Below are positions 11,121 through 64,000 of a stretch of DNA of 64,000 nt, piece by piece. Source of the DNA: a virus; IMG/VR virus record IMGVR_UViG_3300025626_001351, positions 5,816 through 69,815 of that record. The stretch is one strand, 5' to 3'. Below the pieces are notes generated by a model. It did not search any database. It was given only the letters and a program-made list of their open reading frames with translations, and was not told the origin of the DNA. Every line of letters starts with the position of its first letter. Position 1 is the first letter of the stretch. A program made the position numbers and the translations under genes.

Positions 11121-12071
11121 TTAAACTTTTATACGTTCTTTCTTACTACACAACCCATCATTAGTTTTAAATGGACACCACTTACAATTTTTATTGTTCT
11201 TACCTGCTATTGGAAGAAATTCACCTTCTGAATTATATGTACCATCATCATTAAATGCTACGTCAATAAAATCATTGAAACTATTGACTATCTTATTTAG
11301 TGTTGGTTTACCATGAGCTGGTACAAATTCTTGTACTCGTTTTTGTGCAAACATTGCCTCTTCCCATAACTTACGTTTTACAATAAAATATCTAACTTGA
11401 ATCTTATCAACTGGGTATCCATATTGTTCAGCGAAGAACTTTTTATATAATACTAATTGAGCCGTTTTGGTCTTATCAGCCTTTTGCCACTTGTTCCATC
11501 CTTTAGTAGATGTTTTAATGTCCCATATTTCAATCGAACCATCATCAATAACTTCGAACACCAAATCAAGGAATCCCTTCATCATAACGTTTTCATTGAC
11601 CTCAGATGCTGGGAAGTATATTGGAAGTTCTACACCTACTAACCTCATCTTACGAGTTGAAAAGTAGTCACTTCTATTTTTCTTAAGGAAATCTATAATC
11701 TGAACCCCATCATCGTAAAACTCATTCATTTCACTACGATTGGTAAACTTAACACCATACACAGCCATCATCTTTTTATACTCCTTAGCCATCTCATCTA
11801 AGAGTAATTGGTTTAAGTCCATCTTTTCAGCTTCAACAGCCGATTGATTGTACATGACTTGTAACCAAGCTTGTAGAGTTTCGTGCATTGCTGTACCAAA
11901 TACAAGATGGATTGATGGGTCAAAGTCTCTATGACCATCCATGTAAGTTAATTTCCATTGTTTTGGACAATTAGCCCACATCGTATACTGAGAATACGAT
12001 ACTTTAACATCACCCTTCTTTTCTTCGTGAACAGGAAAGTTAAAGATATTCGATACCATTGATTTTTTCAT
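11121..12071 (-). CDS. PD-(D/E)XK Cas4/RecB-like exonuclease
   Basis: SYSQ..CP, FGTAMHE, GFLDL, IWDIKT, QLVLY, CKWCPF..C. Start at ATG 12071, directly after a promoter (track start 12107). Confidence 0.8.
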   Translation of the reverse strand: MKKSMVSNIFNFPVHEEKKGDVKVSYSQYTMWANCPKQWKLTYMDGHRDFDPSIHLVFGTAMHETLQAWLQVMYNQSAVEAEKMDLNQLLLDEMAKEYKKMMAVYGVKFTNRSEMNEFYDDGVQIIDFLKKNRSDYFSTRKMRLVGVELPIYFPASEVNENVMMKGFLDLVFEVIDDGSIEIWDIKTSTKGWNKWQKADKTKTAQLVLYKKFFAEQYGYPVDKIQVRYFIVKRKLWEEAMFAQKRVQEFVPAHGKPTLNKIVNSFNDFIDVAFNDDGTYNSEGEFLPIAGKNNKNCKWCPFKTNDGLCSKKERIKV

Positions 12072-12076
12072 ACACT

Positions 12077-12108
12077 CTAATATACGACAATTTGGCGTAA
12101 ATACCAAA
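12077..12108 (-). promoter_or_regulatory. Bacteroidota-type sigma70 promoter
   Basis: TTTG-N20-TATATTAG; ATG 5 nt downstream. Confidence 0.8.
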
Positions 12109-12136: not shown

Positions 12137-12544
12137 TTACTTAGCCCACTTCTTTCTTTGGACTATCTGAGAAATAATTCCATATACACTCAAGTCTTCG
12201 TAAGTGTCTTGAATATTTTCACCGACTTCATCAGGTTGGCCTAATACAACTAATTGCTTTAGTCTCTGAATCTTGTCATTTTTTCTGAACCATAACCCTA
12301 CTAAAGATAATTTTATATCTTCATCAGATTCTAAGTTAGTTCCAACTGATATATTACCTGGTCCGTAGTTTCTTTGCTTCTTACAAAACGTAACATACAT
12401 CTCATCTAATATACTTTTAAACTCATTACAAGTTTCAGGATATAATCTTTCACAATAATCTTGTGCGTTTTCTTCTTTTTTATTCTTTACAACACGTTCA
12501 GAATATTTTACTTTGTTCTTTTTGTCTCTTATTATTTCAGCCAT
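12137..12544 (-). CDS. DUF1599 / nucleotide-modification-associated domain protein
   Basis: FCKKQRNYG, RKNDKIQRL, ENIQDTYEDLSVYGII. Confidence 0.7.
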   Translation of the reverse strand: MAEIIRDKKNKVKYSERVVKNKKEENAQDYCERLYPETCNEFKSILDEMYVTFCKKQRNYGPGNISVGTNLESDEDIKLSLVGLWFRKNDKIQRLKQLVVLGQPDEVGENIQDTYEDLSVYGIISQIVQRKKWAK

Positions 12545-12972
12545 TTCTTGATTTGTTTTTTATCTATCCCATATTTTTTAAGAATATCGGATATTTCTTC
12601 CTTACTTAATATCTCAAGGTAGTCTTTTACTTCCCTTTGAGAAACTTTATAGTATCGAGATAAGTACTCTAATACATTAGAATCGTACTTTTCTCCGGTC
12701 TTACTTTTTATGTATTTATCAAAAGATTTCTTCTTAGGTAATACATCTAAGTATAATTTATACACATCTCGTGGACTGAGTTGACCAATAGTAAATTGTT
12801 GCAACTCGTTTACCAACTCAAGCAGTCCCATATTCATAGATAGGAATCTATTTACCATGAATGGTTCAAAGGTCTTTCTATCCATAGTGGATAGTTTATC
12901 CCACGATACCTTCTGCTCTTTGAGTCCTGAGAGGTGTTGAAATAATGTCTTAGCTTTCTTAGCTACCGCCAT
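12532..12972 (-). CDS. Clamp loader small subunit (T4 gp62-like)
   Basis: PFMVNRFLSM, LSRYYKVSQREVKDYL; lies downstream of the gp44-like gene. Confidence 0.7.
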   Translation of the reverse strand: MAVAKKAKTLFQHLSGLKEQKVSWDKLSTMDRKTFEPFMVNRFLSMNMGLLELVNELQQFTIGQLSPRDVYKLYLDVLPKKKSFDKYIKSKTGEKYDSNVLEYLSRYYKVSQREVKDYLEILSKEEISDILKKYGIDKKQIKKWLK

Positions 12973-13231
12973 CTAGTAATTCTTTTGGTGTAAATTTAGG
13001 ATGAACTGTTCCACAATTATTACAAACCACAACTGGTATTGGTAACATTGAAGCTTGACCTGTCGGTGATTGAACTGCTGGGACTTCTTTATACATCGTA
13101 AGTTGTTCGAAGAATATCCCATCACAATTAGGACACGTTACAGTCTCCAATTTAGCTGGGTCTAATTTTAATTGTTGTGGTTGTGATTGGGCTCCACCCA
13201 TATTCAAAACCTTTCCTTTGTTTTTTGCCAT
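12959..13231 (-). CDS. Zn-ribbon hypothetical protein
   Basis: CPNC...CNNCG. Confidence 0.6.
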   Translation of the reverse strand: MAKNKGKVLNMGGAQSQPQQLKLDPAKLETVTCPNCDGIFFEQLTMYKEVPAVQSPTGQASMLPIPVVVCNNCGTVHPKFTPKELLDGGS

Positions 13232-13234
13232 AAT

Positions 13235-14152
13235 TTATCCTATTGTCATTAAAATGTTTAATATCATTGCCATTACATTGATTTCTTTATCAACTACCAT
13301 TGAATCTTTATACTGACCATCAGCTATGTTTAAAATAGTTTGTCCTACCTTACCACCACCATAATTATCCACATTATCATATAAAGAACGATATAATGGT
13401 GTAAAGTCTTTTACTTTAGAATCAGCTATAATCTGTCTTATTGACATAAATTTAGATTTGACATCATCTGACTTCTTTAGAACTTCTATAATATCATCCG
13501 TATAGTTAGCTTGTATAGTAGACGTTTTATCAATAACTAATTTACCATTAATTACTTGTCTTTGACCTGCGTTAAGTACTCTACGAATATCAGGATACCC
13601 ACTATTTACTAAAGTTACTAAATCTTGAACATCAAAGTCAACACCTTCTTCTTGTAAGATATCATTTAATCGTTTAGCTACATCTTTTTTAGAAGGGGGT
13701 GCTATAGCGAATGTCTGACATCTACTTTGAATAGGGTCAATAATTTTCTCAACATAATTACAAGTTAATATAAATCTTGTTGTTGCTGAGAATGTTTCCA
13801 TTAGATTACGAAGTGCTGCCTGTGCATTTGGTGTTAGGTAATCAGATTCATCTAAGATGATAACTTTCCATTTACGGAAACCCATAGAAGATGCAAATCC
13901 TCTAATCTTATCTCTAACAGCATCTACTGAGTTTTCATCAGATGCGTTAATGTACATCAAATCACAATCGATTTGGTTTGTAATGATTTTAGCGAGAGTG
14001 GTCTTACCTGTACCTGCTACTCCGTAAAGTAATAGATGTGGTACATCTTCATTCTCAATGTAAATTTTTACTTTTTCTAAGATATGTTCATTACCAACAT
14101 ACCCTTCTAATGTATCGGGTCTATATTTTTCAACCCATAGTGAATTGCTCAT
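13235..14152 (-). CDS. Clamp loader AAA+ subunit (T4 gp44/RFC-like)
   Basis: LWVEKYRP, GVAGTGKTT, ILDESD, SRC. Track start 14194; ATG 14152 overlaps the upstream stop. Confidence 0.92.
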   Translation of the reverse strand: MSNSLWVEKYRPDTLEGYVGNEHILEKVKIYIENEDVPHLLLYGVAGTGKTTLAKIITNQIDCDLMYINASDENSVDAVRDKIRGFASSMGFRKWKVIILDESDYLTPNAQAALRNLMETFSATTRFILTCNYVEKIIDPIQSRCQTFAIAPPSKKDVAKRLNDILQEEGVDFDVQDLVTLVNSGYPDIRRVLNAGQRQVINGKLVIDKTSTIQANYTDDIIEVLKKSDDVKSKFMSIRQIIADSKVKDFTPLYRSLYDNVDNYGGGKVGQTILNIADGQYKDSMVVDKEINVMAMILNILMTIG

Positions 14153-15339
14153 CTTCCTACTTCTTTTAAATATGTTTCTTTTGCTTTTTCCCAAGTCATT
14201 CCAATGATGTCTAAGTAGAACAATGGTTCTGGCTTAATACGACCTTCATCAAATAGCTTTGCGTATCTTCGTATTGCTTTTGGCTTCCACCACTTCATAG
14301 TATATTCGTCACCCTCTGTGAATTTCTTCTTCATCTTCAGTTGACTCTCATCAATTTTGTTTTGAAGAAACTCATTCCCATTGTCATACATCATTGCGAA
14401 ATATACACCTCTTTTAAATCCATGTTGGTAGTGAGTACTTTTAATACCTAACTCTTTAAATATCATTGAAAGGATACGTTGTTTAACACCTGATACAGGT
14501 CCTTCAATTCCTTCTTTCTGAGTGGTGGTTTTTGTATAGTCCTCTGATTTATGTTCTTTCAACCATTGATGCCAAACATCATAATACTTGTCATCTGGTT
14601 TAGTAGCAACTTTACCTGCGGATTCACCTAAAGTTTTGTAATGTGGAATACCATTATATTGGGAGTGGATACCATATAGAGATGTAGTGCCGACTGCTAT
14701 CAGTTCTTGACCATACTTTTCCTTCCAATGGTTACGAACGATTGGTGAAGTACACATACAGGCGACTAATTTACCACCAAGAAAATTATAGCCAAGTGGT
14801 TGGGTACAAACAATTGTACTGGCTATTGTGGTGTGGTTTAGACGACCATCTTTAAATTTATTTTCTTTACTCCATCCTATATAGTTATCCCTAACTCCCA
14901 ACGATGTTACATCTGAACCTAATGATACTAAACCTAAGAGTTTACCACTCACTCTATCCTTAATATATAACTTTACATTACGACCTGGATTAGCTGAAAA
15001 CGACATTGTATGAATCAACTTACGAATTTCTGTCCATCTTGTTGATTCTTTGGAGTCTGTTACGATTTCAACATATGGGTCTAAGGACTCTATCTCTTTG
15101 ATAGTTTGGTCTTTATCCATAATGTTAGTAGGTGACCACAATTGGTCAATATATGGCGCCATAGCAGCTTTTCTCTTCATAGAAGATGGAAGGTCACCAT
15201 TATACTCTACCCACTTTTTATATAAGGTTTGTTCTTCAACTGACATAGATGATAGATAATCCATATTTCCTATGAAATTCTCTTTCTCTACATCGTAGTC
15301 GAATATTGGTTTAGCTGGCTCGGTATCCCAAAAATTCAT
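14149..15339 (-). CDS. DUF4338 / DruA-like protein
   Basis: PGRNVKL..SGKLLGLVSLGSD..LGVRDNYIGW, QPLGYNFLGGKLVA, TTSLYG..SQYN. Confidence 0.7.
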   Translation of the reverse strand: MNFWDTEPAKPIFDYDVEKENFIGNMDYLSSMSVEEQTLYKKWVEYNGDLPSSMKRKAAMAPYIDQLWSPTNIMDKDQTIKEIESLDPYVEIVTDSKESTRWTEIRKLIHTMSFSANPGRNVKLYIKDRVSGKLLGLVSLGSDVTSLGVRDNYIGWSKENKFKDGRLNHTTIASTIVCTQPLGYNFLGGKLVACMCTSPIVRNHWKEKYGQELIAVGTTSLYGIHSQYNGIPHYKTLGESAGKVATKPDDKYYDVWHQWLKEHKSEDYTKTTTQKEGIEGPVSGVKQRILSMIFKELGIKSTHYQHGFKRGVYFAMMYDNGNEFLQNKIDESQLKMKKKFTEGDEYTMKWWKPKAIRRYAKLFDEGRIKPEPLFYLDIIGMTWEKAKETYLKEVGR

Positions 15340-16034
15340 TACTTTATCTCTACTAAGTAATAGTTAGACTTAAATCCTTCATGTTCAAATACAACCTCTG
15401 CTAATCCTTGTGGTGATACTTTTAGTGAAGAAGACTTAGCACCTCTATTAGCGTTAAGAATTTCTTTTAAATATTTAGCCGAGAACGAGATTGGTTCTAC
15501 ATCACCCTCACAAGTACAGTCTACATTCATAGAAATTCTATTTGAGTTAATTTTAGAATAACCTAAAATAACCTCACCTTTAGATTTTTTACAAGTGAAT
15601 GTAAATGTATCTGAATCACTAAGTGCTCCTTTTGATTTAATGAATTTACTAACAAAATCATCATTCATTGTAATTGTTGACGTGAATGGTGGAAGTGCTT
15701 TTAACTCTGGAACTACTGGGATTACAGATAGGTCAGCCAACATATAGTTTACTGATGTACCTTTATCAGAAAATACAAGAGCTGCTTCACCCTCTTTAAC
15801 ATCCATATTAGAGTCTAAAACTCCAAGTAGACCTTTTAATTGTGATGTAGTATAAACACCATACTCTCCATTTGGAAAATCTTTGTTATCACTACTTACG
15901 TTACCTAATAAGGTTTTATCATCAGATATAAAATTAACTGATAATCCTGCATCTGTCGATGTTACTTTTACTGATTCGACTTCACCACCGAGATTGTATC
16001 GGTTAATAAAGCCTTCAAACGAACTTTTTTTCAT
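15339..16034 (-). CDS. Sliding clamp (T4 gp45/PCNA-like)
   Basis: 231 aa, FSAKYLKEIL and YYLV C-terminus; lies between PolB and the clamp loader. Confidence 0.75.
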   Translation of the reverse strand: MKKSSFEGFINRYNLGGEVESVKVTSTDAGLSVNFISDDKTLLGNVSSDNKDFPNGEYGVYTTSQLKGLLGVLDSNMDVKEGEAALVFSDKGTSVNYMLADLSVIPVVPELKALPPFTSTITMNDDFVSKFIKSKGALSDSDTFTFTCKKSKGEVILGYSKINSNRISMNVDCTCEGDVEPISFSAKYLKEILNANRGAKSSSLKVSPQGLAEVVFEHEGFKSNYYLVEIK

Positions 16035-16066
16035 AATTTACTTTTTACTATTGATTTATTATTATA

Positions 16067-16098
16067 CTAATATACGAAATTTATTTTTAAAAACCAAA
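16067..16098 (-). promoter_or_regulatory. Bacteroidota-type sigma70 promoter (clamp operon)
   Basis: TTTG-N20-TATATTAG. Confidence 0.8.
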
Positions 16099-18603
16099 AA
16101 ATTGTGAAGCTTTATTTAGATTCGGGTTTGGTTTCTCCCAATTCATAGCTTTATAGAAGTCATCAAGTTTATTTTCTAACTCTTGTTTCCATATTTTGTC
16201 ATAGTCAATGTATTGTTCTACAAAGTCTAATATCTCTTTTGGGTCATTATGACCCTTTAGGCCCGTTGTATCTAATCCAAGAGGGTTTCTTTTCAAATAT
16301 ACCCATTTAATTTTATCACCATCTTTCATTGGTTCATATTTGTAAGCAGTCTTAAAGTATTTTAATAACTGATTGTAAGTAAGTGCTGCTTTAACGTGAG
16401 CTGGTGTTCCTTTCATAAACTCACCCAATACTTGAGACTTATGTGTATATTTGGTCATATCCTTTACTGCTGAATTCTTTGCGATATCAATGAAGTTTTT
16501 GTTTGGCATCTCTTCTTTGTAATCAAGAATCTTAGTATCAATTTTAGTTTTTTCAGTAGACTTCAGAATATCCATCAATACAGTACTCATCACTTCTTTG
16601 AAGTAAGTTGGGAATGATGAACGTTTCACATCCAATCCTTTAACATCCAACTTATCACAATCAACCTCATTATCATTAATAATCCATTGAGCGTATCGTT
16701 TCTTTGATACCCAAAATCCACCTTTAGCGATAGTTTCTTGTTTGATATCAAAATGATGTTTTGTTATGTTAAACATTTTTAATGCCATCATATCATATAC
16801 TTTGTTGATGTGAGTCTCAACTTCTTTTGCAGCTGATAGAATAGCTGGAATCATCTCTTCATCAGAATCTTCATTAAGTTCTGGATTACGAGCTTTTACT
16901 AATGGAGCGGCTTGATAGAATACCGAGTCAGTATCAGTATACACGTTGTAATCAGCATCTTTACCAATAACACTTGAATAGTACTTATTAGCAATCATCT
17001 CAGTTGTTTTAATTACAGTCTGACCTGTGATTGTAGTTGCTTCTGCATTATCTACATCATAGAATCTGAATGATGGTAATCCCATTACACCATATAATGA
17101 GTTCAACATAATCTTTTGTACTAACTGACGTTGAGCGTAAAATTTATATAGTTTATCATTCCCAGCTTTACCATAGGATTTCATTTGATTTTTAAACTCC
17201 ACTCTTTTGTTGAACCATACATTAAGAATTTCAGGAATAACCCCTACTTTGTCTTGTCTATATAGTACACCATTAGCTGCTACTGAATATTCATTTTTCT
17301 CAATAAAATTATTAAACTTATCTTTTGGTAATGGTGGAAATTCATTACCATCGTCATCGACAATTGAATATGTTTCAATAGCACCCTTCATGTGGTCTTC
17401 AGCTGAATAGTTCTTAAGTTTACCAATCTTAGTTTCAGGTGAGATATTGATACTCATAATGATTGATGGGTATAGTGAAGTCAAATCCAAATCATAAACC
17501 CATTTGTAAAGACCAGGTTTTGGTTCTTTTACATAAGCTCCTGTAAACTTTCCTTCACCATCAGAACCATCAGCATTTTTAAACATACGTTGAGGTTTGT
17601 TAGGTGCGATTCTATCACTCCTTCTAAGGAATGTTAAAATAGCCCCTTCTAACCATTTAGATGAAAATAAAAAATCCTCATAGAATACATGACCTGCGTG
17701 ACAAATTGCTTGTGCGAGTTGTATAAATTGTAGTTTCTTATCCATATCCACTACCAATTCAACATCAACTAAGTTGTACTCACAAAACTTCTCAATATCA
17801 TCTCTGAATAATTGGTCTAAGTTTCCTTCATACTCAATCTTACCTCTACCCAATTCCATCTTAGCGATAGTATCTAATCGGTAGTTTGGGTATTCTGTAT
17901 ATGTAAAGTTCTTGAATAGTGCAATATAATCTAATGCAGATACTCCTGCTATAATGTACCTCTTACGATATTTGTTCCAATGAACTTTACCGATTGGTGA
18001 TAATCTATTTGCTTGTGTAGTACCTAAGACTCTTTTTAATCTATTGTAGAGATATGTTACATCAAAGAAATCAATATTCCATCCAGTAATAATAGTTGGT
18101 GAAATCTCTTCCCAAGCATTTACAAATGCAACCAACATATCTGCCTCACTACGAAATGAACGTACTTTAGCACCTTTGATAGTCTTATCTATCTCTTCAC
18201 CTTCACTAAGTACATATACAGTGTAATCGTTTGTAGCTGAGTCGTGAAATGCAACTGAGGTCATTGTGTTCTCAGCTTTTTCAGTATCAGGCAATCCACT
18301 ATTCATCTCAACCTCAATATCAAACGTCAATGTAACGTGTCCAGTTGAAATTTCATCTGAATCACCATACTCATCGATTAAAAATCGAGTCATTTCGTTT
18401 ACATCTGATTCGTAAAGTTTAAGACCATCATCTTGTTTCCAAAAATTAATCTTCTTTAACCTTTCGCCATGAATAGATTGGTGTGCTCCATTACCATCTT
18501 TTACATAAGCGTACCTACGATATTTAGATGTGAAATACCCCTTCTGGTCATCCCAACAATGGATGATACTTTTTTCTTTTTCAAAATAAACGTTTTGATA
18601 CAT
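16087..18603 (-). CDS. Family B DNA polymerase (gp43-like)
   Basis: Exonuclease DIE, GWNIDFFD, YNLVD; polymerase DLTSLYPS, KIMLNSLYG, YTDTDS, KKRY; C-terminal PIP-like QFFGF. Confidence 0.95.
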   Translation of the reverse strand: MYQNVYFEKEKSIIHCWDDQKGYFTSKYRRYAYVKDGNGAHQSIHGERLKKINFWKQDDGLKLYESDVNEMTRFLIDEYGDSDEISTGHVTLTFDIEVEMNSGLPDTEKAENTMTSVAFHDSATNDYTVYVLSEGEEIDKTIKGAKVRSFRSEADMLVAFVNAWEEISPTIITGWNIDFFDVTYLYNRLKRVLGTTQANRLSPIGKVHWNKYRKRYIIAGVSALDYIALFKNFTYTEYPNYRLDTIAKMELGRGKIEYEGNLDQLFRDDIEKFCEYNLVDVELVVDMDKKLQFIQLAQAICHAGHVFYEDFLFSSKWLEGAILTFLRRSDRIAPNKPQRMFKNADGSDGEGKFTGAYVKEPKPGLYKWVYDLDLTSLYPSIIMSINISPETKIGKLKNYSAEDHMKGAIETYSIVDDDGNEFPPLPKDKFNNFIEKNEYSVAANGVLYRQDKVGVIPEILNVWFNKRVEFKNQMKSYGKAGNDKLYKFYAQRQLVQKIMLNSLYGVMGLPSFRFYDVDNAEATTITGQTVIKTTEMIANKYYSSVIGKDADYNVYTDTDSVFYQAAPLVKARNPELNEDSDEEMIPAILSAAKEVETHINKVYDMMALKMFNITKHHFDIKQETIAKGGFWVSKKRYAQWIINDNEVDCDKLDVKGLDVKRSSFPTYFKEVMSTVLMDILKSTEKTKIDTKILDYKEEMPNKNFIDIAKNSAVKDMTKYTHKSQVLGEFMKGTPAHVKAALTYNQLLKYFKTAYKYEPMKDGDKIKWVYLKRNPLGLDTTGLKGHNDPKEILDFVEQYIDYDKIWKQELENKLDDFYKAMNWEKPNPNLNKASQFFGF

Positions 18604-18606
18604 ATA

Positions 18607-19740
18607 CTATTTTAACTTATTATGTAACTCCTTAATCATTATCTCTTCGTTCAAAGATAATTCCAAAGCTCTATTTAATGACATTTTGTCGTGTTCTTTA
18701 CGGAACGTGTCATCATCTAATATTTTATCTAAATAATTAAAGAAGTCTTTTTTATATTTAAAGAACATTCCATTAGGGTCAATTTCCCTATAACAATCAG
18801 AATCATGCCAAATCATTGGAGTACCATTCATCATACAATCAGTTCCACTTACTGACCAACCATAATTTGTTTGTTTCATTTGAACACCAACAACACAATC
18901 TTGTAATCGTTTATAGTAATCATGTTTTGGTACTTTGGTATTGTCTACCCAAGTGTGTGGTGGTTTACCATTCAACTGAGGAATCCACACTTTGAAATCA
19001 TCTCTTGTTTTTCTGTATTCTACCATCAACTCCATAAACTTTGGATACCCCTTGTATGCAGCTGCTCTGTGATTGAATACAATTAACTTTTCTTTTGATT
19101 TCTTAACATCACTAACAATCTTTTGTTTAGGTAACCCTAAGTTCCAAACTGAAAGTATATTATCCAATTTGGTTACAAATTCTTGATTAAAAGTATCACC
19201 TGCTTCTTTTAATACTCTATTCTTTTGGTCTTGTGTATTAATATAACAAGTATCCATTTGGGAGATACCTAATAATTCAATTGGTAACCATAGCCATTTT
19301 GGTTTACCAGCTCTATTATCAGGACCATTACATGATTTCATTTCCCACCAATGACAATAACCTATAATTTTAGTATTCATTGTTTTACGATACCTACCCA
19401 CTTGTACCCAATCAGGCAGATGTGAATAGATTACATCATAATCAATGTCTTTTAACATATTAATTAACTTGTCAGATGGAAACGACCTCTGATTCATCAT
19501 GTCACCAGGTATATGAATCTGATGCTGTTTGACGTTTGGTAAGTTTAACTTCTTTGCTAACTTACCTTCAGGCATGAGAACATTAAAGAAGTAATCACCA
19601 CATTCATTTAGTTTTAGAATATGATTATATATAACGTCTACGAAACTGTCTTTATCAACATTGGATGAATTAGTAATATTAGGAATTACAAGCACCTTAC
19701 GTGCTTTACTATAATCTATACTATCACCCCAAAAATTCAT
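18607..19740 (-). CDS. GT-B fold glycosyltransferase, candidate DNA glycosyltransferase
   Basis: DVIYSHLPD, IVFNHR...YKG, GWSVSGTDCMMNGTP; co-transcribed with PolB. Confidence 0.6.
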   Translation of the reverse strand: MNFWGDSIDYSKARKVLVIPNITNSSNVDKDSFVDVIYNHILKLNECGDYFFNVLMPEGKLAKKLNLPNVKQHQIHIPGDMMNQRSFPSDKLINMLKDIDYDVIYSHLPDWVQVGRYRKTMNTKIIGYCHWWEMKSCNGPDNRAGKPKWLWLPIELLGISQMDTCYINTQDQKNRVLKEAGDTFNQEFVTKLDNILSVWNLGLPKQKIVSDVKKSKEKLIVFNHRAAAYKGYPKFMELMVEYRKTRDDFKVWIPQLNGKPPHTWVDNTKVPKHDYYKRLQDCVVGVQMKQTNYGWSVSGTDCMMNGTPMIWHDSDCYREIDPNGMFFKYKKDFFNYLDKILDDDTFRKEHDKMSLNRALELSLNEEIMIKELHNKLK

Positions 19741-19759
19741 ATTTGTTATTTTATATATA

Positions 19760-19791
19760 CTAATATACGACTTTTATTTTAAACTACCAAA
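19760..19791 (-). promoter_or_regulatory. Bacteroidota-type sigma70 promoter (GT-PolB)
   Basis: TTTG-N20-TATATTAG. Confidence 0.8.
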
Positions 19792-20578
19792 AGTTTACCT
19801 GATTTTCTGGCGTAAATGTTTCATGATGTACCACTTCTGATAGAAACTCACTTGCGTCTTTAGGATATGGACTTACTTTGTGCTTAAGTCGTTTAGTTAA
19901 CTTACGTTTTTCCGATTTGTTCTGACCTAACACTTGTATATATCTGTGTTTTGCTGATTCTTTTTTTCTCCAAAATTCAGTTAAGTTCTCCTTACCAAGT
20001 TGTGTCTTTAAATGGTCAAGGTTATGACTACCCCATCGAGAAAATACAGTTCTTGAATGTATCCACTTATGTGGGTCACTTTCGATTGATATGGAGTAGT
20101 TTGGCATTAATTGTATATCACGACAATCTTGATATAACCAATTGGTTGCTTGATAGATACCACCTAAATGCATTTGCTCGGGGTCAGCATACGATAATAA
20201 CATTTTTATATTAGATGCGTTATCTTTCATCCATTTAAAAGATTGTCCCATAGCAAACGATTCAATATTTGAACCATACCCATCGTGTATAAATAATCGT
20301 GTTAGTTCTAAACACTCATCTTTTTCTAAACCATCAATAACTGATTTTATTGCCGACCTACCTACTGGATACCCATATACTAAACACCCTATTAATGTTT
20401 CTGTATTACCAAGAACATCCTTTTCGTCAGTTTCATAGAATACCCCAAGTGCGTATCTACACATCGTCCAAGCATGCGAATAGTGATATTTTACAATCAT
20501 TTTCTTTGCCGTAGATTTACCTATTTCTCTAATAGTAACACGAGATGTATCTACATAATGTTTATTAGCTTCTTTCAA
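19784..20578 (-). CDS. Mom-family (GNAT) DNA-modifying acyltransferase, paralog 2
   Basis: IVKYHYSH, GCLVYG, LELTRLF, NIESF, LSYADP..HLGGIYQATNW, KHRY. Confidence 0.8.
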   Translation of the reverse strand: MKEANKHYVDTSRVTIREIGKSTAKKMIVKYHYSHAWTMCRYALGVFYETDEKDVLGNTETLIGCLVYGYPVGRSAIKSVIDGLEKDECLELTRLFIHDGYGSNIESFAMGQSFKWMKDNASNIKMLLSYADPEQMHLGGIYQATNWLYQDCRDIQLMPNYSISIESDPHKWIHSRTVFSRWGSHNLDHLKTQLGKENLTEFWRKKESAKHRYIQVLGQNKSEKRKLTKRLKHKVSPYPKDASEFLSEVVHHETFTPENQVNFW

Positions 20579-21323
20579 TTGGGTCTAATTTTCTAATTTC
20601 TAATTCCTCTACGATACCACCTTTTGGATATGGTAATGTTGGATGTTTTAAATTCTTAAGTAACTTTCTTCGTTGACCACCCTTAGCGAGAATGTAAACA
20701 TATCTGTGCTTTCGTGGTTCTTTACGAATCCAAAATGAGGTCTCCACCTGCTCTTGTATCTTTTTAGGATTGTTAGTTCCATAATATGGAAATATAGTTC
20801 TACCATGTTGCCATTCACCATCTTCGGTAAATTTAAAACTCCAGCTATCATTGAATCTTAACTCATTACCCTGGTACTCCCAATTAGTAGCTTGGTAAAT
20901 TGTACCAGCGTGTCCTTCTTTTGGGTCTGAATATGATATTAATCCTTTTATTTGTGGTTGGTTTTCTCGTAACCATTGAAACGTCTGTCCTAAGAACCAA
21001 CTCTCTATATTAGAACCATAATCGTCAAATACAAACAGTCTTACTAACTCTAAAACTTGAGTTCTATCTAATAATGGTGTAATTGACTGACCACTTAATC
21101 TTCCGATTGGGTCACCATAACAAGCGACTCCAATTAACTTTTCACTACAATTAAAGAACTGATGTTCCTCAACGTCAGATGTAAACAAACCTATGGCGTG
21201 AGATACCTTAGTCCATAGATGTGAATAATGGTTTTTTACTATGATATCCTTGGCGACAGATTTGGAAATTTTTCTAACTGATAACTTTGATGTGTCACAA
21301 TAAGATTTTCCCTCTTCTTTCAT
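20565..21323 (-). CDS. Mom-family (GNAT) DNA-modifying acyltransferase, paralog 1
   Basis: IVKNHYSH, GVACYG, LELVRLF, NIESW, ISYSDP..HAGTIYQATNW, KHRY. Confidence 0.8.
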   Translation of the reverse strand: MKEEGKSYCDTSKLSVRKISKSVAKDIIVKNHYSHLWTKVSHAIGLFTSDVEEHQFFNCSEKLIGVACYGDPIGRLSGQSITPLLDRTQVLELVRLFVFDDYGSNIESWFLGQTFQWLRENQPQIKGLISYSDPKEGHAGTIYQATNWEYQGNELRFNDSWSFKFTEDGEWQHGRTIFPYYGTNNPKKIQEQVETSFWIRKEPRKHRYVYILAKGGQRRKLLKNLKHPTLPYPKGGIVEELEIRKLDPIERS

Positions 21324-21526
21324 TATTGATAGTCGTTAAATTCTCCAAATAAAATGTGTGTCCATGTTTGTCCTTTAACAATCTTTCGAATGTTGGCTGG
21401 GGATACTCCATTGTTTTTAGCTAATACTCTAATATTTCTATGTCCAACAGACCACAATTGTCTAATAGACCTAACTTGTCGTTCTGTTAATTTATGTGCG
21501 GGATGTGATTCACCTCTTAATGCCAT
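21323..21526 (-). CDS. Small HTH DNA-binding protein (resembles the HNH endonuclease C-terminal domain)
   Basis: RGESHPAHKLTERQVRSIR..LAKNNGVS..IRKIVKGQTW. The track GTG at 21541 overlaps the promoter, so ATG 21526 is preferred. Confidence 0.65.
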   Translation of the reverse strand: MALRGESHPAHKLTERQVRSIRQLWSVGHRNIRVLAKNNGVSPANIRKIVKGQTWTHILFGEFNDYQ

Positions 21527-21540
21527 TCTAAATCTTTTCA

Positions 21541-21572
21541 CTAATATACGAATTTATTTTGTAATTTCCAAA
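21541..21572 (-). promoter_or_regulatory. Bacteroidota-type sigma70 promoter (HTH-Mom-Mom)
   Basis: TTTG-N20-TATATTAG. Confidence 0.8.
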
Positions 21573-22129
21573 CTTAAGTCACCATTTCTTACACCACTTG
21601 GTGGGTCTGTCCATAAGTTTATAGCTATGGCGCTTCTAAGACCTCTTGTTACAGGTGTAACTTTATGATGATGATATCCAGCTGGAAATATAACCAATCT
21701 ATTTTTCTTTGGTGCAATACATTCTGGAATTGTATCAGGGGTTGTATATGGGTTTTCTTCATATATTTCAAGAAACCCACCATCTATATCATTTTCAATA
21801 GGATAATAGACCGTACCAATTATTGGACTGACAATTTCACCTGTTTTTAAGTAAAGTGCTTCGTCTTTATCAAGATGAAATGGTAACCCCTCAGGTTTAG
21901 TTTCATCATACTGACCTGTCCAATATTCAAATCCACTAACAGACATCTGCTTATATGGTGATGCTTCACCCCAAATAGCTTGTATCAGCCGTTTTTTAAG
22001 AGTGTTTGCTGGTGTGTTCCACCAACCATCCCACCACATATATTGCCCACCATTATCGAAAAAGGTTTTGTCATTTTGCAAGTCGTTCAATAACGACTCG
22101 TCTTTAATAAAATCATCTATTACAATCAT
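21554..22129 (-). CDS. 2OG-Fe(II) oxygenase
   Basis: MIVIDDF, HLD, GGFL, NRLVIF, HKV, R-S-A. Confidence 0.8.
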   Translation of the reverse strand: MIVIDDFIKDESLLNDLQNDKTFFDNGGQYMWWDGWWNTPANTLKKRLIQAIWGEASPYKQMSVSGFEYWTGQYDETKPEGLPFHLDKDEALYLKTGEIVSPIIGTVYYPIENDIDGGFLEIYEENPYTTPDTIPECIAPKKNRLVIFPAGYHHHKVTPVTRGLRSAIAINLWTDPPSGVRNGDLSLEITK

Positions 22130-28815: not shown

Positions 28816-28821
28816 ATGATA

Positions 28822-28853
28822 CTAATATACGAAATTTAATTTTACTATCCAAA
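28822..28853 (-). promoter_or_regulatory. Bacteroidota-type sigma70 promoter (helicase)
   Basis: TTTG-N20-TATATTAG; ATG 6 nt downstream. Confidence 0.8.
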
Positions 28854-58082: not shown

Positions 58083-61000
58083 TTAATAAAAACTACCAGA
58101 ATGGAATGTTCTTACAATATATACTGCATCACCACTTGACCACCCATTAGGTTTGAACATAAGTTTTTGTCCAACTACATCAAAATAACCACCACCACTT
58201 ATTACATTACCCTTTTCACCAAGAGTTCCTTTAGTTCCAGTAAGTCCCTTGTTTCCAGTAGCAGCTGTTGCGCCTGTTACACCTTTAGCACCTTGAGCTC
58301 CTTGGTCTCCACTTAAACCATTTGCACCTGCAGCACCAGTATTTCCTTTTATACCCTTTGTACCTTTTGAACCTTGAGCGCCTGTATCTCCCGTCGCACC
58401 TGTACTACCTTTTACACCTTTTGTACCTTGAGCACCTTGAGCGCCTGTATTACCAGCATCACCTGTATTACCTTTTGTTCCTGTAGCTCCCTTAGCACCT
58501 TGAGCTCCTAAGTTTCCAGCATTACCCTTTTCACCTTGATTTCCACTAGCACCCTTTTCACCTTGAGGGCCTGTATCTCCTGCTGAACCAGTGTTACCTT
58601 TTATACCCTTTGTACCTTTTGAACCTTGAGCACCTTGATTACCAGCATCACCTGTGTTACCTTTTATACCTTTTGAACCTTTTGAACCTTGAGCACCTTG
58701 ATTACCATCGTTACCTGTGTTACCTTTTATACCCTTTGTACCTTTTGAACCTTGAGCACCTTCGTTTCCAGCAGCACCAATATTTCCTTTTATACCTTTT
58801 GTACCCTTTGAACCTTGAGCACCTTCGTTTCCAGCAGCACCAGTATTTCCTTTTATACCTTTTGTACCTTTTGAACCTTGAGCGCCTGTATTACCATCGT
58901 TACCTGTGTTACCCTTTATACCCTTTGTACCCTTACTACCTTGAGCACCTTGATTACCATCGTTACCTGTGTTACCTTTTATACCCTTAGCACCTTTAGC
59001 ACCTTGAGCACCTGTATTACCATCATTACCAACTGACCCTGTATTACCAGTATTTCCTTTTGAACCTTGAGCTCCTTCATTACCAATATCACCAGTATTT
59101 CCTTTACTACCCGTAGCACCACCACCACCTTGAGGGCCTGTATTTCCTGCTGCACCTGTGTTACCAACAGCACCAGTTGCACCACCACCGCCTTGAGGGC
59201 CTGTATTACCACTAGCTCCTTGTAGACCTGTTGAACCTTGTGCACCTTGAGGGCCTGTATTTCCAGCTGCCCCTGTATTTCCTTTATCACCCTTAGCACC
59301 TTGTCCACCTTGAGGCCCTGTATTTCCTGCAGCACCTGTTGAACCTAAATTACCCTTATTTCCTAAAGAACCTTTATTTCCAGCTGAACCTGTGTTTCCT
59401 TTATCACCTTTAACACCTTGAGCACCTTGAGGGCCTGTATTTCCAGCTGCCCCAGTATTTCCTTTGTCACCTTTAGCACCCTGCCCACCTTGAGGACCTG
59501 TGTTTCCAGCAGAACCAGTATTTCCTTGGTTACCTTTATTTCCTAAAGAACCTTTATTTCCAGCTGACCCAGTATTTCCTTTATCACCTTTAGCACCTTG
59601 TCCACCTTGAGGGCCTGTGTTTCCAGCTGAACCTGTATTTCCTTTTAACCCTTTTGTACCCTTTGAACCTTGAGCGCCTGTATTACCACTAGCACCAGTA
59701 TTTCCTTTATTACCTTTAGCACCTTGTCCACCTTGAGGGCCTGTGTTTCCAGCAGCTCCACCCGAACCAGTATTTCCTTGGTTACCTTTTGAACCTTGTG
59801 CGCCTTGGTTTCCAGCATTACCTGTGTTTCCTTTTGGGCCTTTAGCACCTTGTCCACCTTGAGGGCCTGTGTTTCCAGCTGACCCAATATTTCCTTTATC
59901 ACCTTTAGCACCTTGTCCACCTTGAGGGCCTGTGTTTCCAGCTGAACCTGTATTTCCTTTATCACCTTTAGCACCTTGTCCACCTTGAGGGCCTGTGTTA
60001 CCAGCCGCACCTGTCGAACCTACGTTACCCTTATTTCCTAAAGAACCTTTATTTCCAGCATTACCTGTATTTCCTTTTGGGCCTTTAGCACCTTGAGCAC
60101 CTGTTGAACCTTTATTTCCAGCATTACCTGTATTTCCTTTATCACCTTTAGCACCCTGCCCACCTTGAGGACCTGTGTTTCCAGCATTACCTGTGTTTCC
60201 TTTATCGCCTTTAGCACCTTGAGCACCTGTTGAACCTTGATTACCAGCTGCCCCAGTATTTCCTTTATCGCCTTTAGCACCTTGAGCACCTGTTGAACCT
60301 TGATTACCAGCTGCCCCAGTATTTCCTTTATCGCCTTTAGCACCTTGAGCTCCTGTTGAACCTTGATTACCAGCTGCCCCAGTATTTCCTTTATCACCTT
60401 TAGCACCTTGAGCACCTGTTGAACCTTGGTTTCCAGCATTACCTGTGTTTCCTTTTGGGCCTTTAGCACCTTGAGCACCTGTTGAACCTTTATTTCCAGC
60501 ATTACCTGTATTTCCTTTTGGGCCTTTAGCACCTTGTCCACCTTGAGGGCCTGTATCTCCTGCTGAACCTGTATTTCCTTTATCACCTTTAGCACCTTGA
60601 GCACCTGTTGAACCTTGGTCACCAGCTGCCCCAGTAGGACCTGTATTTCCTGTATTTCCTTTAGCACCCGTTGCACCTTTAGCCCCAGCATGACCTGTGT
60701 TTCCTTTAGGACTTGCTCCTTGTGCACCTGTTGAACCTTTAGCCCCAGCATGACCTTTAGGGCCGGTTGGATTTGCCCCTTGAGCACCTTGAGGGCCTGT
60801 AGCCCCAGCATGACCTTTAGCTCCTTGAGGACTTGCCCCTTGAGCACCTTGAGGGCCTGTAGCCCCAGCATGACCTTTAGCTCCTTGAGGACTTGCCCCT
60901 TGAGCACCTTGAGGGCCTGTAGCCCCAGCATGACCTTTAGGGCCGGTTGGATTTGCCCCTTGAGCACCTTGAGGGCCTGTAGCCCCAGCATGACCTTTAG

Positions 61001-62249: not shown

Positions 62250-62265
62250 CGTAACTCCTAATTAA

Positions 62266-63999: not shown

Positions 64000-64000
64000 T

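What the first reader, a model, noticed from the sequence alone, without database searches (positions are those of the whole stretch)
12137..21526. Candidate DNA hypermodification cluster interleaved with the replisome
Seen: in transcription order HTH, Mom-like 1, Mom-like 2, GT-B, PolB, clamp, DUF4338, gp44, Zn-ribbon, gp62, DUF1599, all under sigma70-type early promoters, whereas the main glycan operon uses the late motif. Known: Mu Mom is a GNAT enzyme that modifies adenine; T4 DNA glucosyltransferases are GT-B; DUF1599 is associated with phage base-modification loci. Inference: a replication-coupled multi-enzyme base modification (acylated and/or glycosylated base) of unknown chemistry.
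Basis: partly seen in the sequence, partly recalled or inferred. Interest (0 to 1): 0.75.

Follow-up and report, generated by a model that had tools for sequence, protein, structure and literature searches.

The report
Clamp-linked DNA-modifying enzymes in phage replisome
An uncultured T4-like water phage keeps two Mom-type adenine-modifying enzymes, a third Mom-shaped enzyme of the unexplained DruA family and a phage-only sugar transferase among its DNA-copying genes, probably to disguise new DNA by a chemistry not yet described.

Summary
On the minus strand the order is HTH, Mom1, Mom2, GT-B, PolB, clamp, DruA/DUF4338, gp44, Zn-ribbon, gp62, DUF1599-like.

New here:
- The DruA-like protein is a GNAT whose closest solved structure is Mu Mom.
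- The GT-B is a GT4-like fold from a small, phage-only family.
- GT-B and DruA travel together. They sit beside PolB and the clamp in 80 related loci. In a second, distant lineage they sit between gp44 and gp62, without Mom.
- Mom2, GT-B and DruA share a terminal Phe-Trp tag that is rare elsewhere.
- A model docks Mom2, tag included, on the clamp trimer: score 0.67 against a best control of 0.01.
- The DUF1599-like and Zn-ribbon genes are backbone replisome genes. Mel-JY01 has them but has no Mom, DruA or GT-B.

No hydroxymethylase or TET homologue was found in five large relatives.

Reading: a clamp-associated DNA modification set, with two modules rather than one proven pathway. The chemistry is unknown.

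This scan has already noted the same system in at least 19 other genomes.

The parts
21539..21551 (-). 13-nt promoter-like motif (1 mismatch) before the HTH-Mom1-Mom2 unit
   Evidence: the sequence context is shown
21323..21541 (-). Small HTH protein (72 aa from the GTG start; an ATG start lies at 21526), first gene of the Mom unit
   Evidence: ORF. Weak PHROG HTH and HNH-associated matches (8e-5). A homologue was called in 46 ORFs across the 80 related loci.
20565..21323 (-). Mom1: Mom-family GNAT, 252 aa, no Phe-Trp tail
   Evidence: PF25680 at 1.2e-45. PDB 8bv8 Mu Mom at 5.6e-12. 44% identical to Mom2.
19784..20578 (-). Mom2: Mom-family GNAT, 264 aa, with a tail of about 25 aa ending Asn-Phe-Trp (codons 19787-19795)
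   Evidence: PF25680 at 2e-48. The C-terminal FW is kept in 60 of 65 Mom2-class ORFs. Modelled on the clamp trimer, with residues 262-264 in the interface.
19758..19770 (-). 13-nt promoter-like motif (exact) before GT-B and PolB
18607..19740 (-). GT-B glycosyltransferase, GT4-like fold, phage-only family. It starts Met-Asn-Phe-Trp. Its stop lies 3 nt before the PolB start.
   Evidence: Model pLDDT 83.7, with residues 1-6 disordered. Foldseek finds MshA, GlgM, BshA and PglA at about 1e-12. The family profile finds 280 cluster representatives among 1.84 billion. N-terminal MxFW is present in 65 of 80 homologue ORFs.
16087..18603 (-). Family B DNA polymerase (gp43-like). Its C-terminus ends ..QFFGF.
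   Evidence: the C-terminal [QK]FF[SGA]F is conserved in relatives
16065..16077 (-). 13-nt promoter-like motif (exact) before clamp-DruA-gp44-Zn-gp62-DUF1599-like
15339..16034 (-). Sliding clamp (gp45-like), 231 aa
   Evidence: phrog_223 at 6e-7. Lies between PolB and the clamp loader. Folds as a trimer (pLDDT 88). The invariant loop 104-115 and C-terminal residues 225-228 lie in the modelled interface.
14149..15339 (-). DruA/DUF4338-family protein, 396 aa: an N-terminal helical part plus a GNAT domain (about residues 80-342) closest to Mu Mom. It starts Met-Asn-Phe-Trp.
   Evidence: PF14236 at 8.2e-23. PADLOC DruA at 4.6e-25. Model pLDDT 83.5. Foldseek 8bv8 at 9.3e-4. VIA-align Z 11.1, 181 residues aligned. 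MxFW is present in 48 of 64 homologue ORFs.
13235..14194 (-). Clamp-loader large subunit (gp44-like)
12959..13231 (-). Zn-ribbon protein: a backbone gene of this replisome module, not specific to the modification set
   Evidence: 34% identical (7e-15) to the Mel-JY01 gene between gp44 and gp62
12532..12972 (-). Clamp-loader small subunit (gp62-like)
   Evidence: phrog_225 at 1.1e-19
12137..12544 (-). DUF1599-like small protein: a backbone gene
   Evidence: Pfam match below the cut-off. 48% identical (8e-44) to the Mel-JY01 gene after gp62.
21554..22129 (-). 2OG-Fe(II) oxygenase just upstream: possibly accessory, not a core part
   Evidence: PF13640 at 2.6e-8. A homologue is present in only 1 of 5 large relatives and was called in 6 ORFs across the 80 loci.

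Best explanation
The region is a DNA-modification set built into the early/replication transcription units of a T4-like phage. It has two modules.

Module 1 is HTH-Mom1-Mom2. By homology with Mu Mom, these GNATs take an aminoacyl group from a charged host or phage tRNA and put it on the N6 of adenine in double-stranded DNA.

Module 2 is the older and more constant part. It pairs a DruA-family GNAT of Mom-like shape with a phage-only GT4-like GT-B, and it is always placed beside the polymerase, clamp or clamp-loader genes.

Mom2, GT-B and DruA each carry a short Phe-Trp tag on a floppy chain end. The most likely role of the tag is to hook the enzymes onto the phage's own sliding clamp, as the polymerase tail does, so that they act on DNA just after it is copied.

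Inferred chemistry: a GNAT adds an acyl or aminoacyl group to a base, and the GT-B adds a sugar, either to that group or to another acceptor.

Shown here: gene identities, folds, conservation, the tag, the shared promoter-like motif, and a passing docking model.

Inferred: that GT-B and DruA act on DNA, that the tag binds the clamp in the cell, and all of the chemistry.
For: Mom identity:
- Both genes pass Pfam's cut-off and match PDB 8bv8.
- In 28 Mom sequences from the window and its relatives, the equivalents of Mu H58, Y59, R111, S124 and Y159 are invariant and D149 is nearly so. The residue list comes from PMC13219725, section 13.

DruA fold:
- Mu Mom is the only Foldseek PDB match at E <= 0.001.
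- It is also the top VIA-align match: Z 11.1, rmsd 3.7, 181 of 222 residues. The next GNAT scores 9.9 with 151 residues aligned.
- Others have written that DUF4338 is a GNAT (PMC10853773).
- Others have also noted that a cyanophage homologue resembles Mom in structure (PMC12801897; that gene matches DruA).

GT-B:
- It has a GT4-like fold.
- 43 residues are invariant across family members that are 31-62% identical to the window protein.

Linkage:
- Of 51 related loci with at least 6.5 kb downstream of GT-B, 48 have DruA and 50 have PolB.
- Three different gene orders all keep GT-B and DruA within the polymerase-clamp-loader block, and they are directly adjacent in two of the three.
- Over 37 loci, GT-B (median 69.6% identity) and DruA (65.6%) are better conserved than PolB (54.4%).
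- In a second lineage (GT-B about 37% identical, PolB about 32%), DruA is found in 29 of 31 loci with room and is adjacent to GT-B in 28. There the pair sits inside gp45-gp44-[DruA-GT-B]-gp62-regA.

Tag:
- Among the + strand ORFs of at least 40 aa in the 80 loci, N-terminal MxFW occurs only in GT-B (65 of 80), DruA (48 of 64) and one artefactual Mom2 start.
- C-terminal FW occurs in Mom2 (60 of 65) and 8 others. Two of those 8 are a TET-associated glycosyltransferase family member (PF20691, 1.8e-23) lying right after Mom2.
- In a 98%-complete relative, 5 of 431 ORFs carry such a tag, and 3 of them are these enzymes.
- The tagged ends are disordered in the models.
- The second residue varies while F-W does not, so the constraint is on the protein.

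Docking:
- Clamp trimer plus Mom2 gave 'supports binding', with a median score of 0.67 (runs 0.67, 0.20, 0.69) and a best control of 0.01.
- That mark was reached by 58 of 80 solved complexes and 2 of 110 mismatched pairs.
- The runs agree in at least 68% of contacts, and the partner's pLDDT is at least 75.
- The interface includes Mom2 262-264 (N-F-W), the 53-62 insertion that Mu Mom lacks, and the clamp's invariant 104-115 loop and C-terminus.

Expression: the same 13-nt motif precedes the three units here and also the helicase and gp32 genes.
Against: - No nucleoside or binding data exist. The docking model is a prediction made with my own shallow alignments, one of three runs scored only 0.20, and clamp-peptide complexes are solved, so part of the pass may be memory.
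- GT-B and DruA were not themselves docked, because the cap was one job.
- No sugar acceptor was found. The thymidylate synthase of five large relatives is canonical (TIGR03284 at 288-321 bits in the three scored; Asn kept in FNIAS in the one read). No Tet_JBP or TAGT was found in them, although the Tet_JBP control rang nowhere.
- Structure does not point to DNA glycosyltransferases in particular. The best matches are small-molecule and glycan GT4 enzymes, and entries labelled DNA alpha-glucosyltransferase appear only at ranks 31 and 50 of the viral library.
- A profile comparison of DruA against Mom found nothing (Neff 1.8).
- The Mu R151 equivalent, essential in Mu, is Lys in Mom1 and Glu in Mom2.
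- Cultured pelagiphages and cyanophages carry DruA-like genes away from the clamp and without GT-B. In Mosig the NFW lies inside the protein, not at an end.
- The second-lineage DruA has no FW start.
- One contig has GT-B beside a homing endonuclease, with no DruA or Mom on 27 kb.
- The related loci are kin, so the counts are not independent events.
Confidence: 0.55

Rival explanations
1. There are two unrelated functions. The Moms carry out ordinary Mu-type momylation of adenine. The DruA/GT-B pair does not touch DNA: it acylates and glycosylates a replisome or host protein, a nucleotide-pool compound or another small molecule needed during replication.
For: - The pair occurs without nearby Mom in 0 of 40 second-lineage loci, and the Moms lie about 11 kb away from it on two contigs.
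- The best structural matches of GT-B are small-molecule and glycan GT4 enzymes (MshA, BshA, GlgM, PglA).
- No hydroxylated base pathway was found.
- GNATs mostly acylate proteins and small molecules (one search list).
Against: - DruA's closest structure is the DNA-modifying Mom, with the longest aligned span.
- A family of DNA-base glycosyltransferases (TAGT) carries the same FW tag in the same slot in two relatives.
- The tag is shared with Mom2, which is modelled on the clamp.
- The pair's placement inside the clamp and clamp-loader operons in two distant lineages is hard to explain for a metabolic enzyme pair.
Confidence: 0.22
2. This is counter-defence by mimicry. The phage DruA homologue interferes with a host Druantia-like system as a decoy or dominant-negative subunit. 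The GT-B then serves another anti-defence role, for example modifying a host factor.
For: - The protein matches the Druantia DruA models.
- DruA's role in Druantia is not described in the papers my searches found.
- Phages are known to carry homologues of defence parts (general knowledge, recalled).
Against: - No other Druantia gene lies nearby.
- The gene is among the best-conserved of the replisome block. It is widespread, with 2916 homologues at E <= 0.001 and 31 cultured phage records from Synechococcus and Pelagibacter hosts. That pattern fits a core enzyme better than a host-specific decoy.
- 116 DruA positions are invariant across 22 sequences, as expected for an enzyme core.
Confidence: 0.08
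3. The Phe-Trp tag is not a clamp hook. It binds another hub (SSB, polymerase, or the enzymes to each other), or it reflects a shared translation-start signal. The genes sit in the replisome block only because that block is the early operon.
For: - The polymerase tail motif (FFxF) differs from FW.
- The GT-B and DruA starts share ATGAATTTTTGGG at the DNA level.
- One of three docking runs was weak.
- GT-B and DruA were not docked.
Against: - The residue before F-W varies widely while F-W is fixed, so the constraint is on the protein.
- The same pair ends Mom2 and the TAGT, at C-termini, where a start signal is irrelevant.
- The passing model puts N-F-W on the clamp's conserved inter-domain loop pocket, with controls at 0.01 or below.
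Confidence: 0.1

Closest known systems
Bacteriophage Mu Mom (Pfam PF25680; PDB 8bv8; Silva et al. 2026, PMC13219725: abstract, sections 13-14 and passages read)
   Same: - Mom1 and Mom2 are full-length family members that keep most of the residues shown to matter in Mu.
- DruA shares the GNAT fold, with Mom as its nearest structure.
- The likely logic is the same: post-replicative modification of adenine in dsDNA to escape nucleases.
   Different: - There are two to three diverged paralogues instead of one gene.
- The Mu R151 and W48 (dimer) equivalents are not kept.
- There is an insertion (Mom2 53-62) and a Phe-Trp tail that Mu lacks.
- The genes sit in replication-type units rather than Mu's late, Com-controlled mom operon.
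- They are accompanied by DruA and a GT-B.
- The donor and product are untested.
Druantia type I DruA (DUF4338, PF14236; PADLOC DruA)
   Same: The sequence family is the same (81.4 bits; PADLOC 4.6e-25), with a GNAT core.
   Different: - No DruB-E genes are present.
- The gene is phage-encoded, inside the clamp and clamp-loader genes, and paired with a GT-B.
- The function of bacterial DruA is not described in the papers my searches found.
T4/RB69 clamp clients (gp43 C-terminal tail, gp33, gp55) and PIP-box enzymes such as DNMT1 on PCNA (recalled knowledge; the RB69 peptide-clamp structure was cited in an earlier scan note, not checked here)
   Same: Short aromatic motif on a flexible terminus. 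The polymerase of this phage has its own aromatic tail. The model places the tag on the clamp's inter-domain loop pocket.
   Different: The motif is F-W, and it is at the N-terminus in two of the three enzymes. The clients are base-modifying enzymes. No binding has been measured.
Phage DNA glycosyltransferases: T4 alpha/beta-GT, TET-associated GTs (PF20691), and the arabinosyl-5-hydroxycytosine systems of RB69, DLP3 and HY126 (PMC13326640: abstract and passages read)
   Same: - A GT-B enzyme encoded next to DNA metabolism genes.
- A phage HY126 glycosyltransferase structure (9ir0) is among the fold matches, at rank 39.
- A TAGT with the same tag replaces or joins it in two relatives.
   Different: - No hydroxymethyl- or hydroxy-pyrimidine synthase or TET was found in five large relatives.
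- The family has no detectable sequence relative in 50,697 cultured phage records.
- The acceptor is unknown.

Membership tests
Mom family (PF25680), for Mom1 and Mom2 | Full-length match to the family profile above the curated cut-off | tested here: met
   156.1 and 165.2 bits against a cut-off of 27.1, covering profile positions 2-202 of 202. phrog_1384 'Mom-like' at 7e-52 and 3e-45.
Mom family (PF25680), for Mom1 and Mom2 | Residues needed for activity in Mu Mom: H58, Y59, R111, S124, D149, Y159 (PMC13219725, section 13) | tested here: met
   My reading of the HMMER alignments to 8bv8 (chain numbering = Mu minus 9) gives Mom1 H32, Y33, R95, S108, D133 and Y143. These are invariant or nearly invariant in 28 sequences.
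Mom family (PF25680), for Mom1 and Mom2 | Mu R151 (essential in Mu) and W48 (dimer contact) | tested here: not met
   The R151 equivalent is Lys in Mom1 and Glu in Mom2, and it varies among relatives. The W48 equivalent is Ser. These residues may be specific to Mu rather than defining for the family.
Mom family (PF25680), for Mom1 and Mom2 | Aminoacyl-tRNA-dependent modification of N6-adenine in dsDNA | not testable with these tools
   This needs expression and nucleoside LC-MS.
DruA / DUF4338 (PF14236) | Profile match above the cut-off | tested here: met
   81.4 bits against 27. PADLOC DruA at 4.6e-25.
Druantia type I defence system | DruA encoded together with DruB-DruE | tested here: not met
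   Its neighbours are the clamp and gp44, and no other Druantia family appears among the 30 window proteins scanned against Pfam. PADLOC matched only DruA among the 5 proteins given to it.
Mom-like GNAT fold, for the DruA-like protein | GNAT core with Mom as nearest structure | tested here: met
   Foldseek 8bv8_B at 9.3e-4, the only match at E <= 0.001. VIA-align Z 11.1, 181 residues aligned, against 9.9 and 151 for the next match. The lead of about 1 Z unit is small.
Mom-like GNAT fold, for the DruA-like protein | Detectable sequence-profile relation to Mom | tested here: inconclusive
   hhalign of A2 against A3 gave probability 0.7%. The profiles are shallow, with Neff 1.8.
GT-B glycosyltransferases, GT4-like | Two-Rossmann-domain GT-B fold | tested here: met
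   Model pLDDT 83.7. At least 500 PDB matches at E <= 0.001. The top ones are GlgM, MshA, BshA and PglA, with TM 0.65-0.71.
GT-B glycosyltransferases, GT4-like | Match to a Pfam GT4 or GT1 model above the cut-off | tested here: not met
   Only Glyco_transf_4 at 21 bits against 28.5. There was no NCBIfam or PHROG match. The second-lineage member has no Pfam match.
Phage DNA glucosyltransferases (T4 AGT/BGT type) | Specific structural or sequence similarity to DNA-acting GTs | tested here: inconclusive
   None appears among the 50 PDB rows shown. Entries labelled DNA alpha-GT rank 31 and 50 in the viral library, at 4e-9 and 2.5e-8, no better than generic GTs.
Sliding-clamp clients with terminal docking peptide | Conserved short aromatic motif on a disordered terminus | tested here: met
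Sliding-clamp clients with terminal docking peptide | Binding to the clamp | not testable with these tools
   Only a model is available: Mom2 on the clamp trimer scored 0.67, with a best control of 0.01. That mark was reached by 58 of 80 solved complexes and 2 of 110 mismatched pairs. GT-B and DruA were not modelled.
DUF1599 / nucleotide-modification-associated domain 1 (PF07659) | Profile match above the cut-off | tested here: not met
   20.2 bits against 25, covering 37 residues. An orthologue is present in Mel-JY01 (48% identical), which lacks Mom, DruA and GT-B.

The most novel reading that the evidence does not exclude
These phages run a 'tool-belt' of base-modifying enzymes on their own sliding clamp. 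A DruA-family GNAT (and the Mom paralogues) installs an acyl or aminoacyl group on a base of freshly copied DNA. The phage-only GT-B then glycosylates it, giving a glyco-(amino)acyl base of a kind not yet described. By extension, bacterial DruA, the unexplained first gene of Druantia type I, would be a DNA-marking enzyme.
Probability: 0.3. Interest if true: 0.9.

Novelty: new variant of a known kind. Interest (0 to 1): 0.7.

Why it matters
- Mom-type modification has only just been explained for Mu: Gly-tRNA is the donor (PMC13219725). Here the family appears as diverged paralogues in abundant aquatic T4-like phages.
- The set also contains a third Mom-shaped enzyme from the DruA family and a private glycosyltransferase. 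Together they point to base modifications beyond N6-carbamoylmethyl-adenine.
- The set suggests a testable way of coupling modification to replication, namely docking on the clamp.
- It gives a handle on what DruA does in Druantia, which the papers my searches found do not explain.
- Such modifications affect restriction, CRISPR and Type IV defences.
- They also affect sequencing and cloning of environmental phage DNA.

Tried and rejected
- Megablast of the 10-kb region against cultured phages found no match.
- NCBIfam found nothing for GT-B, DruA, DUF1599-like, HTH or the 2OG protein.
- The generic sigma-70 and terminator scan showed no enrichment.
- The T4 late motif TATAAATA was not enriched: 11 hits against 12.9 +/- 3.8. 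A related 9-mer on the coding strand is what marks the late genes.
- hhalign of DruA against Mom gave no signal.
- I looked for a hydroxylated-pyrimidine route for the sugar. Five large relatives have a canonical ThyA and no Tet_JBP or TAGT. The Tet_JBP control rang in no genome, so that absence is weak.
- I considered the 2OG oxygenase at 21554-22129 as a core hydroxylase and rejected it. A homologue is present in only 1 of 5 large relatives, and it is P4H/PiuC-like with only weak PDB matches.
- I considered DUF1599 and the Zn-ribbon as modification parts and rejected them.
- The small ORFs beside the clamp in the second lineage and in HTVC008M are not similar to the DUF1599-like protein.
- GT-B has no match in 50,697 cultured phage records.
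- The Protein Atlas only confirmed GT4-like neighbours and viral-only nearest clusters.
- The BFVD fold search gave no specific lead.
- The two extra FW-tagged ORFs of relative G001 have no informative PHROG match.
- tRNAs: none in the window. Relative G001 has nine distinct tRNA genes, including Gly-GCC, Ser-TGA and Thr-TGT. This is common in T4-like phages, so it carries little weight.
- Supplements of PMC13219725 (tested homologues, similarity network) were not opened. They may show whether these Mom clades were assayed.
- Not done: docking of GT-B or DruA on the clamp (cap reached), sequencing-run look-ups, and Rfam scans.

Full report
WHAT THE WINDOW IS. The window is most of a 69.8-kb fragment of an uncultured virus record; CheckV puts it at 35% complete. 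GC is about 33% and nearly all long ORFs lie on the minus strand. It encodes a T4-like replication set: gp32, UvsX/RecA, FEN, a DnaB-like helicase, RNR, PolB, clamp and gp44/62. It also encodes many sugar-pathway genes and tail genes. The nearest cultured polymerase is that of Microcystis phage Mel-JY01, at 47% identity. T4-like cyanophages follow at about 33%.

THE OBSERVATION.
- Firm by sequence: Mom1, Mom2, PolB, DruA/DUF4338 and gp44.
- Firm by PHROGs: the clamp and gp62.
- Weak by sequence: the GT (a sub-threshold Pfam match), DUF1599 (20.2 bits against a cut-off of 25), the Zn-ribbon and the HTH.

PROMOTERS. A generic sigma-70 scan is at chance. A specific 13-nt motif is not. It has ten hits, all on the coding strand, and none of 100 shuffles reach ten. 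It stands just before the HTH, before GT-B, before the clamp and before PDDEXK, and also before the helicase and gp32. The region therefore consists of three consecutive units of the replication class:
- HTH-Mom1-Mom2
- GT-B-PolB
- clamp-DruA-gp44-Zn-gp62-DUF1599-like

A different 9-mer precedes the downstream GT4 glycan operon and several structural genes.

THE MOM GENES. Mom1 and Mom2 are 44% identical to each other and match the solved Mu Mom. Silva et al. (PMC13219725; I read the abstract, sections 13 and 14, and passages) show three things about Mu Mom:
- It transfers glycine from Gly-tRNA(Gly) to N6 of adenine in dsDNA.
- The adduct then rearranges to N6-carbamoylmethyl-adenine.
- H58, Y59, R111, S124, D149, R151 and Y159 line the active site, and W48 holds the dimer.

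I read the HMMER alignments with the crystal chain numbered as Mu minus 9. On that reading both window proteins keep all of these residues except R151 (Lys in Mom1, Glu in Mom2) and W48. The same pattern holds over 28 sequences. Relatives carry one, two or three Moms. Of the 60 loci with at least 3 kb upstream of GT-B:
- 34 have Mom1 and Mom2.
- 16 have Mom2 only.
- 3 have other combinations.
- 7 have no Mom nearby. Two of those contigs have two Moms about 11 kb away.

THE DRUA-LIKE PROTEIN. It matches both the Pfam and the PADLOC DruA models. A model built on 22 homologues (pLDDT 83.5) shows an N-terminal helical part and a GNAT domain. The nearest solved structure to that domain is Mu Mom. 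Mom is the only Foldseek hit at E <= 0.001. By VIA-align it scores Z 11.1 with 181 residues aligned, against 9.9 and about 150 residues for ordinary GNATs. That margin is small. A profile-profile comparison with the Mom alignment found nothing, but the profiles are shallow. Two papers agree in part. DUF4338 is called a GNAT in PMC10853773. A cyanophage ORF that matches this protein was described as structurally similar to Mom in PMC12801897. My searches found no paper that states what DruA does.

THE GLYCOSYLTRANSFERASE. The model (pLDDT 83.7) is a GT-B whose best matches are retaining GT4 enzymes: GlgM, MshA, BshA and PglA. The family is small and private. Its profile finds only 280 cluster representatives among 1.84 billion. 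Nothing matches it in 50,697 cultured phage records, and its nearest Atlas clusters are viral only. Forty-three residues are invariant across members that are 31-62% identical to the window protein, as expected for an active enzyme. Structure does not reveal the acceptor.

LINKAGE. A scan with the GT-B found 120 related stretches, of which 80 loci were kept.
- GT-B, PolB and DruA almost always occur together: 48 and 50 of the 51 loci with at least 6.5 kb downstream have DruA and PolB respectively.
- Three gene orders exist:
  - Mom..GT-B-PolB-clamp-DruA-gp44
  - Mom..DruA-GT-B-PolB-clamp-gp44
  - Mom2-PolB-clamp-GT-B-DruA-DruA-gp44
- Over 37 loci, GT-B and DruA are more conserved than the polymerase.
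- A distant GT-B relative (P0128) led to 40 further loci of a second T4-like lineage. There the order is gp45-gp44-(175-aa ORF)-DruA-GT-B-gp62-regA...PolB.
- In that lineage DruA is present in 29 of 31 loci with room and is adjacent to GT-B in 28. No Mom hit occurs in any of the 40 loci.

So the DruA/GT-B pair is the old, constant unit tied to the clamp genes, and the Moms are an addition in the window's lineage. These loci are related to one another, so the counts are not independent events.

BACKBONE GENES. Mel-JY01 has the order PolB-clamp-gp44-small ORF-gp62-ORF. Its small ORF is 34% identical to the Zn-ribbon. Its last ORF is 48% identical to the DUF1599-like protein. Mel-JY01 has no Mom, no DruA hit and no GT-B hit. 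These two genes therefore belong to the replisome backbone.

THE PHE-TRP TAG. GT-B and DruA both start M-N-F-W, and Mom2 ends N-F-W after a tail of about 25 residues.
- In the 80 loci, N-terminal MxFW is confined to GT-B (65 of 80 ORFs), DruA (48 of 64) and one artefact.
- C-terminal FW occurs in Mom2 (60 of 65) and eight other ORFs.
- Those eight are a 269-aa protein right after Mom2 in two loci, a 54-aa ORF between the Moms in five loci, and one probable noise ORF. The 269-aa protein is a TET-associated glycosyltransferase family member (PF20691, 1.8e-23).
- In a 98%-complete relative, 5 of 431 ORFs carry a tag. Three of them are these enzymes.
- The residue before F-W varies, the tagged ends are disordered in the models, and the polymerase ends in a conserved [QK]FF[SGA]F.
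- More distant GT-B relatives keep an N-terminal [NDK]F[FW] in 7 of 9 aligned sequences.
- The second-lineage DruA has no such start. In pelagiphage Mosig the NFW is internal.

DOCKING MODEL. The clamp trimer plus Mom2, each given as an alignment, returned 'supports binding'.
- The median score was 0.67 (runs 0.67, 0.20, 0.69) and the best of three controls was 0.01.
- That mark was reached by 58 of 80 solved complexes and 2 of 110 mismatched pairs.
- The runs agree in at least 68% of contacts, and the partner's pLDDT is at least 75.
- On Mom2 the interface holds residues 262-264 (N-F-W), 17-30 and 53-62. Residues 17-30 form the helix that carries the dimer Trp in Mu. Residues 53-62 are an insertion that Mu lacks.
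- On the clamp the interface holds the invariant 104-115 loop and the C-terminal 226-228.

This is a prediction made with my own alignments. Clamp-peptide complexes have been solved, so part of the pass may reflect likeness to known structures.

WHAT THE SUGAR COULD GO ON. Five large relatives (79-100% complete) all have a thymidylate synthase. The three copies I scored reach the NCBIfam equivalog at 288-321 bits, and the one I read keeps the dUMP-type Asn. None of the five has a Tet_JBP or TAGT match, though the Tet_JBP control was silent. The neighbouring 2OG oxygenase is not conserved: a homologue occurs in 1 of 5 relatives. The acceptor is therefore open. One untested idea is an aminoacyl adduct that bears a hydroxyl. 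Relative G001 encodes tRNA-Gly, tRNA-Ser and tRNA-Thr among nine tRNA genes, but that is common in such phages.

VERDICT. The cluster is real, conserved and abundant; DruA alone has 2916 homologues.
- It is most likely a clamp-associated DNA-modification set.
- It is made of two modules rather than one demonstrated pathway.
- Two of the named genes are backbone genes.
- The chemistry is unknown.

Earlier notes of this scan describe the same system in at least 19 other genomes, and also the tag. I reached the tag, the fold and the second lineage from my own calls before reading those notes, and they agree. Relative to print, this is a new variant of a known kind (Mom-type and glycosyl DNA modification). 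The bolder reading is a clamp tool-belt that makes a glyco-acyl base, with DruA acting as a DNA-marking enzyme. I put that reading at about 0.3.

Noticed in passing
L036:1207-2016 and L039:522-1331: A 269-aa TET-associated-glycosyltransferase family protein (PF20691, 1.8e-23) lies directly after Mom2. It ends in ..NKFW, the same tag as Mom2. No TET was looked for on these contigs.
   Followed up: partly
L051-L055 (e.g. L052:5643-5807): A 54-aa lysine-rich ORF between Mom1 and Mom2 ends ..KKKFW. It has no Pfam family. It could be a small clamp-binding competitor or adaptor.
   Followed up: no
G001 contig 98824-99282 (L136:3824-4282, minus strand): A 152-aa basic protein has a lysine-rich tail ending ..NGDFW, far from the replisome block. 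It has no PHROG match.
   Followed up: partly
L040:6520-8001: In marine relatives a 493-aa protein with a sub-threshold GmrSD_N/DUF262 match (4.7e-7) lies directly upstream of GT-B, where other relatives have the Moms. GmrSD-type enzymes are known to attack glucosylated DNA (recalled).
   Followed up: no
L077 (contig of 26.9 kb): A GT-B homologue (62% identical, starting MNNFW) sits beside a GIY-YIG homing endonuclease and a holin, with a T4-type terminase and NUMOD3 endonucleases nearby. The contig has no Mom or DruA. CheckV's 99% completeness looks doubtful for a T4-like gene set.
   Followed up: partly
window 12075-12087 against ORF 11121-12107: The 13-nt promoter-like motif lies inside the longest PDDEXK ORF, which has a TTG start. 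The true start of that gene is probably further downstream.
   Followed up: no
window 28820-28832, 21539-21551, 19758-19770: The 13-nt motif ends only 5-18 nt before the start codons of the helicase, HTH and GT-B genes. This implies very short or absent leaders, or a role in translation rather than, or as well as, transcription.
   Followed up: no
window 58083-64000: GC rises to 44-49% over a 1388-aa ORF and a following open ORF. I did not examine this.
   Followed up: no
second-lineage GT-B, e.g. L119:6761-8110, residues about 380-449: The GT-B forms of about 450 aa carry a conserved C-terminal extension of about 70 aa (G-x-x-T-K...W...Y-R-x-x-L) that is absent from the window's form. It has no Pfam match. 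An earlier scan note calls it a DNA-binding-type tail. That was not tested here.
   Followed up: partly
G001 contig about 66.5-77.4 kb (L134, L135): A cluster of nine tRNA genes (Met x2, Gln, Gly-GCC, Thr-TGT, Ser-TGA, Glu, Arg, Leu) occurs in a 98%-complete relative. The window itself has none.
   Followed up: partly
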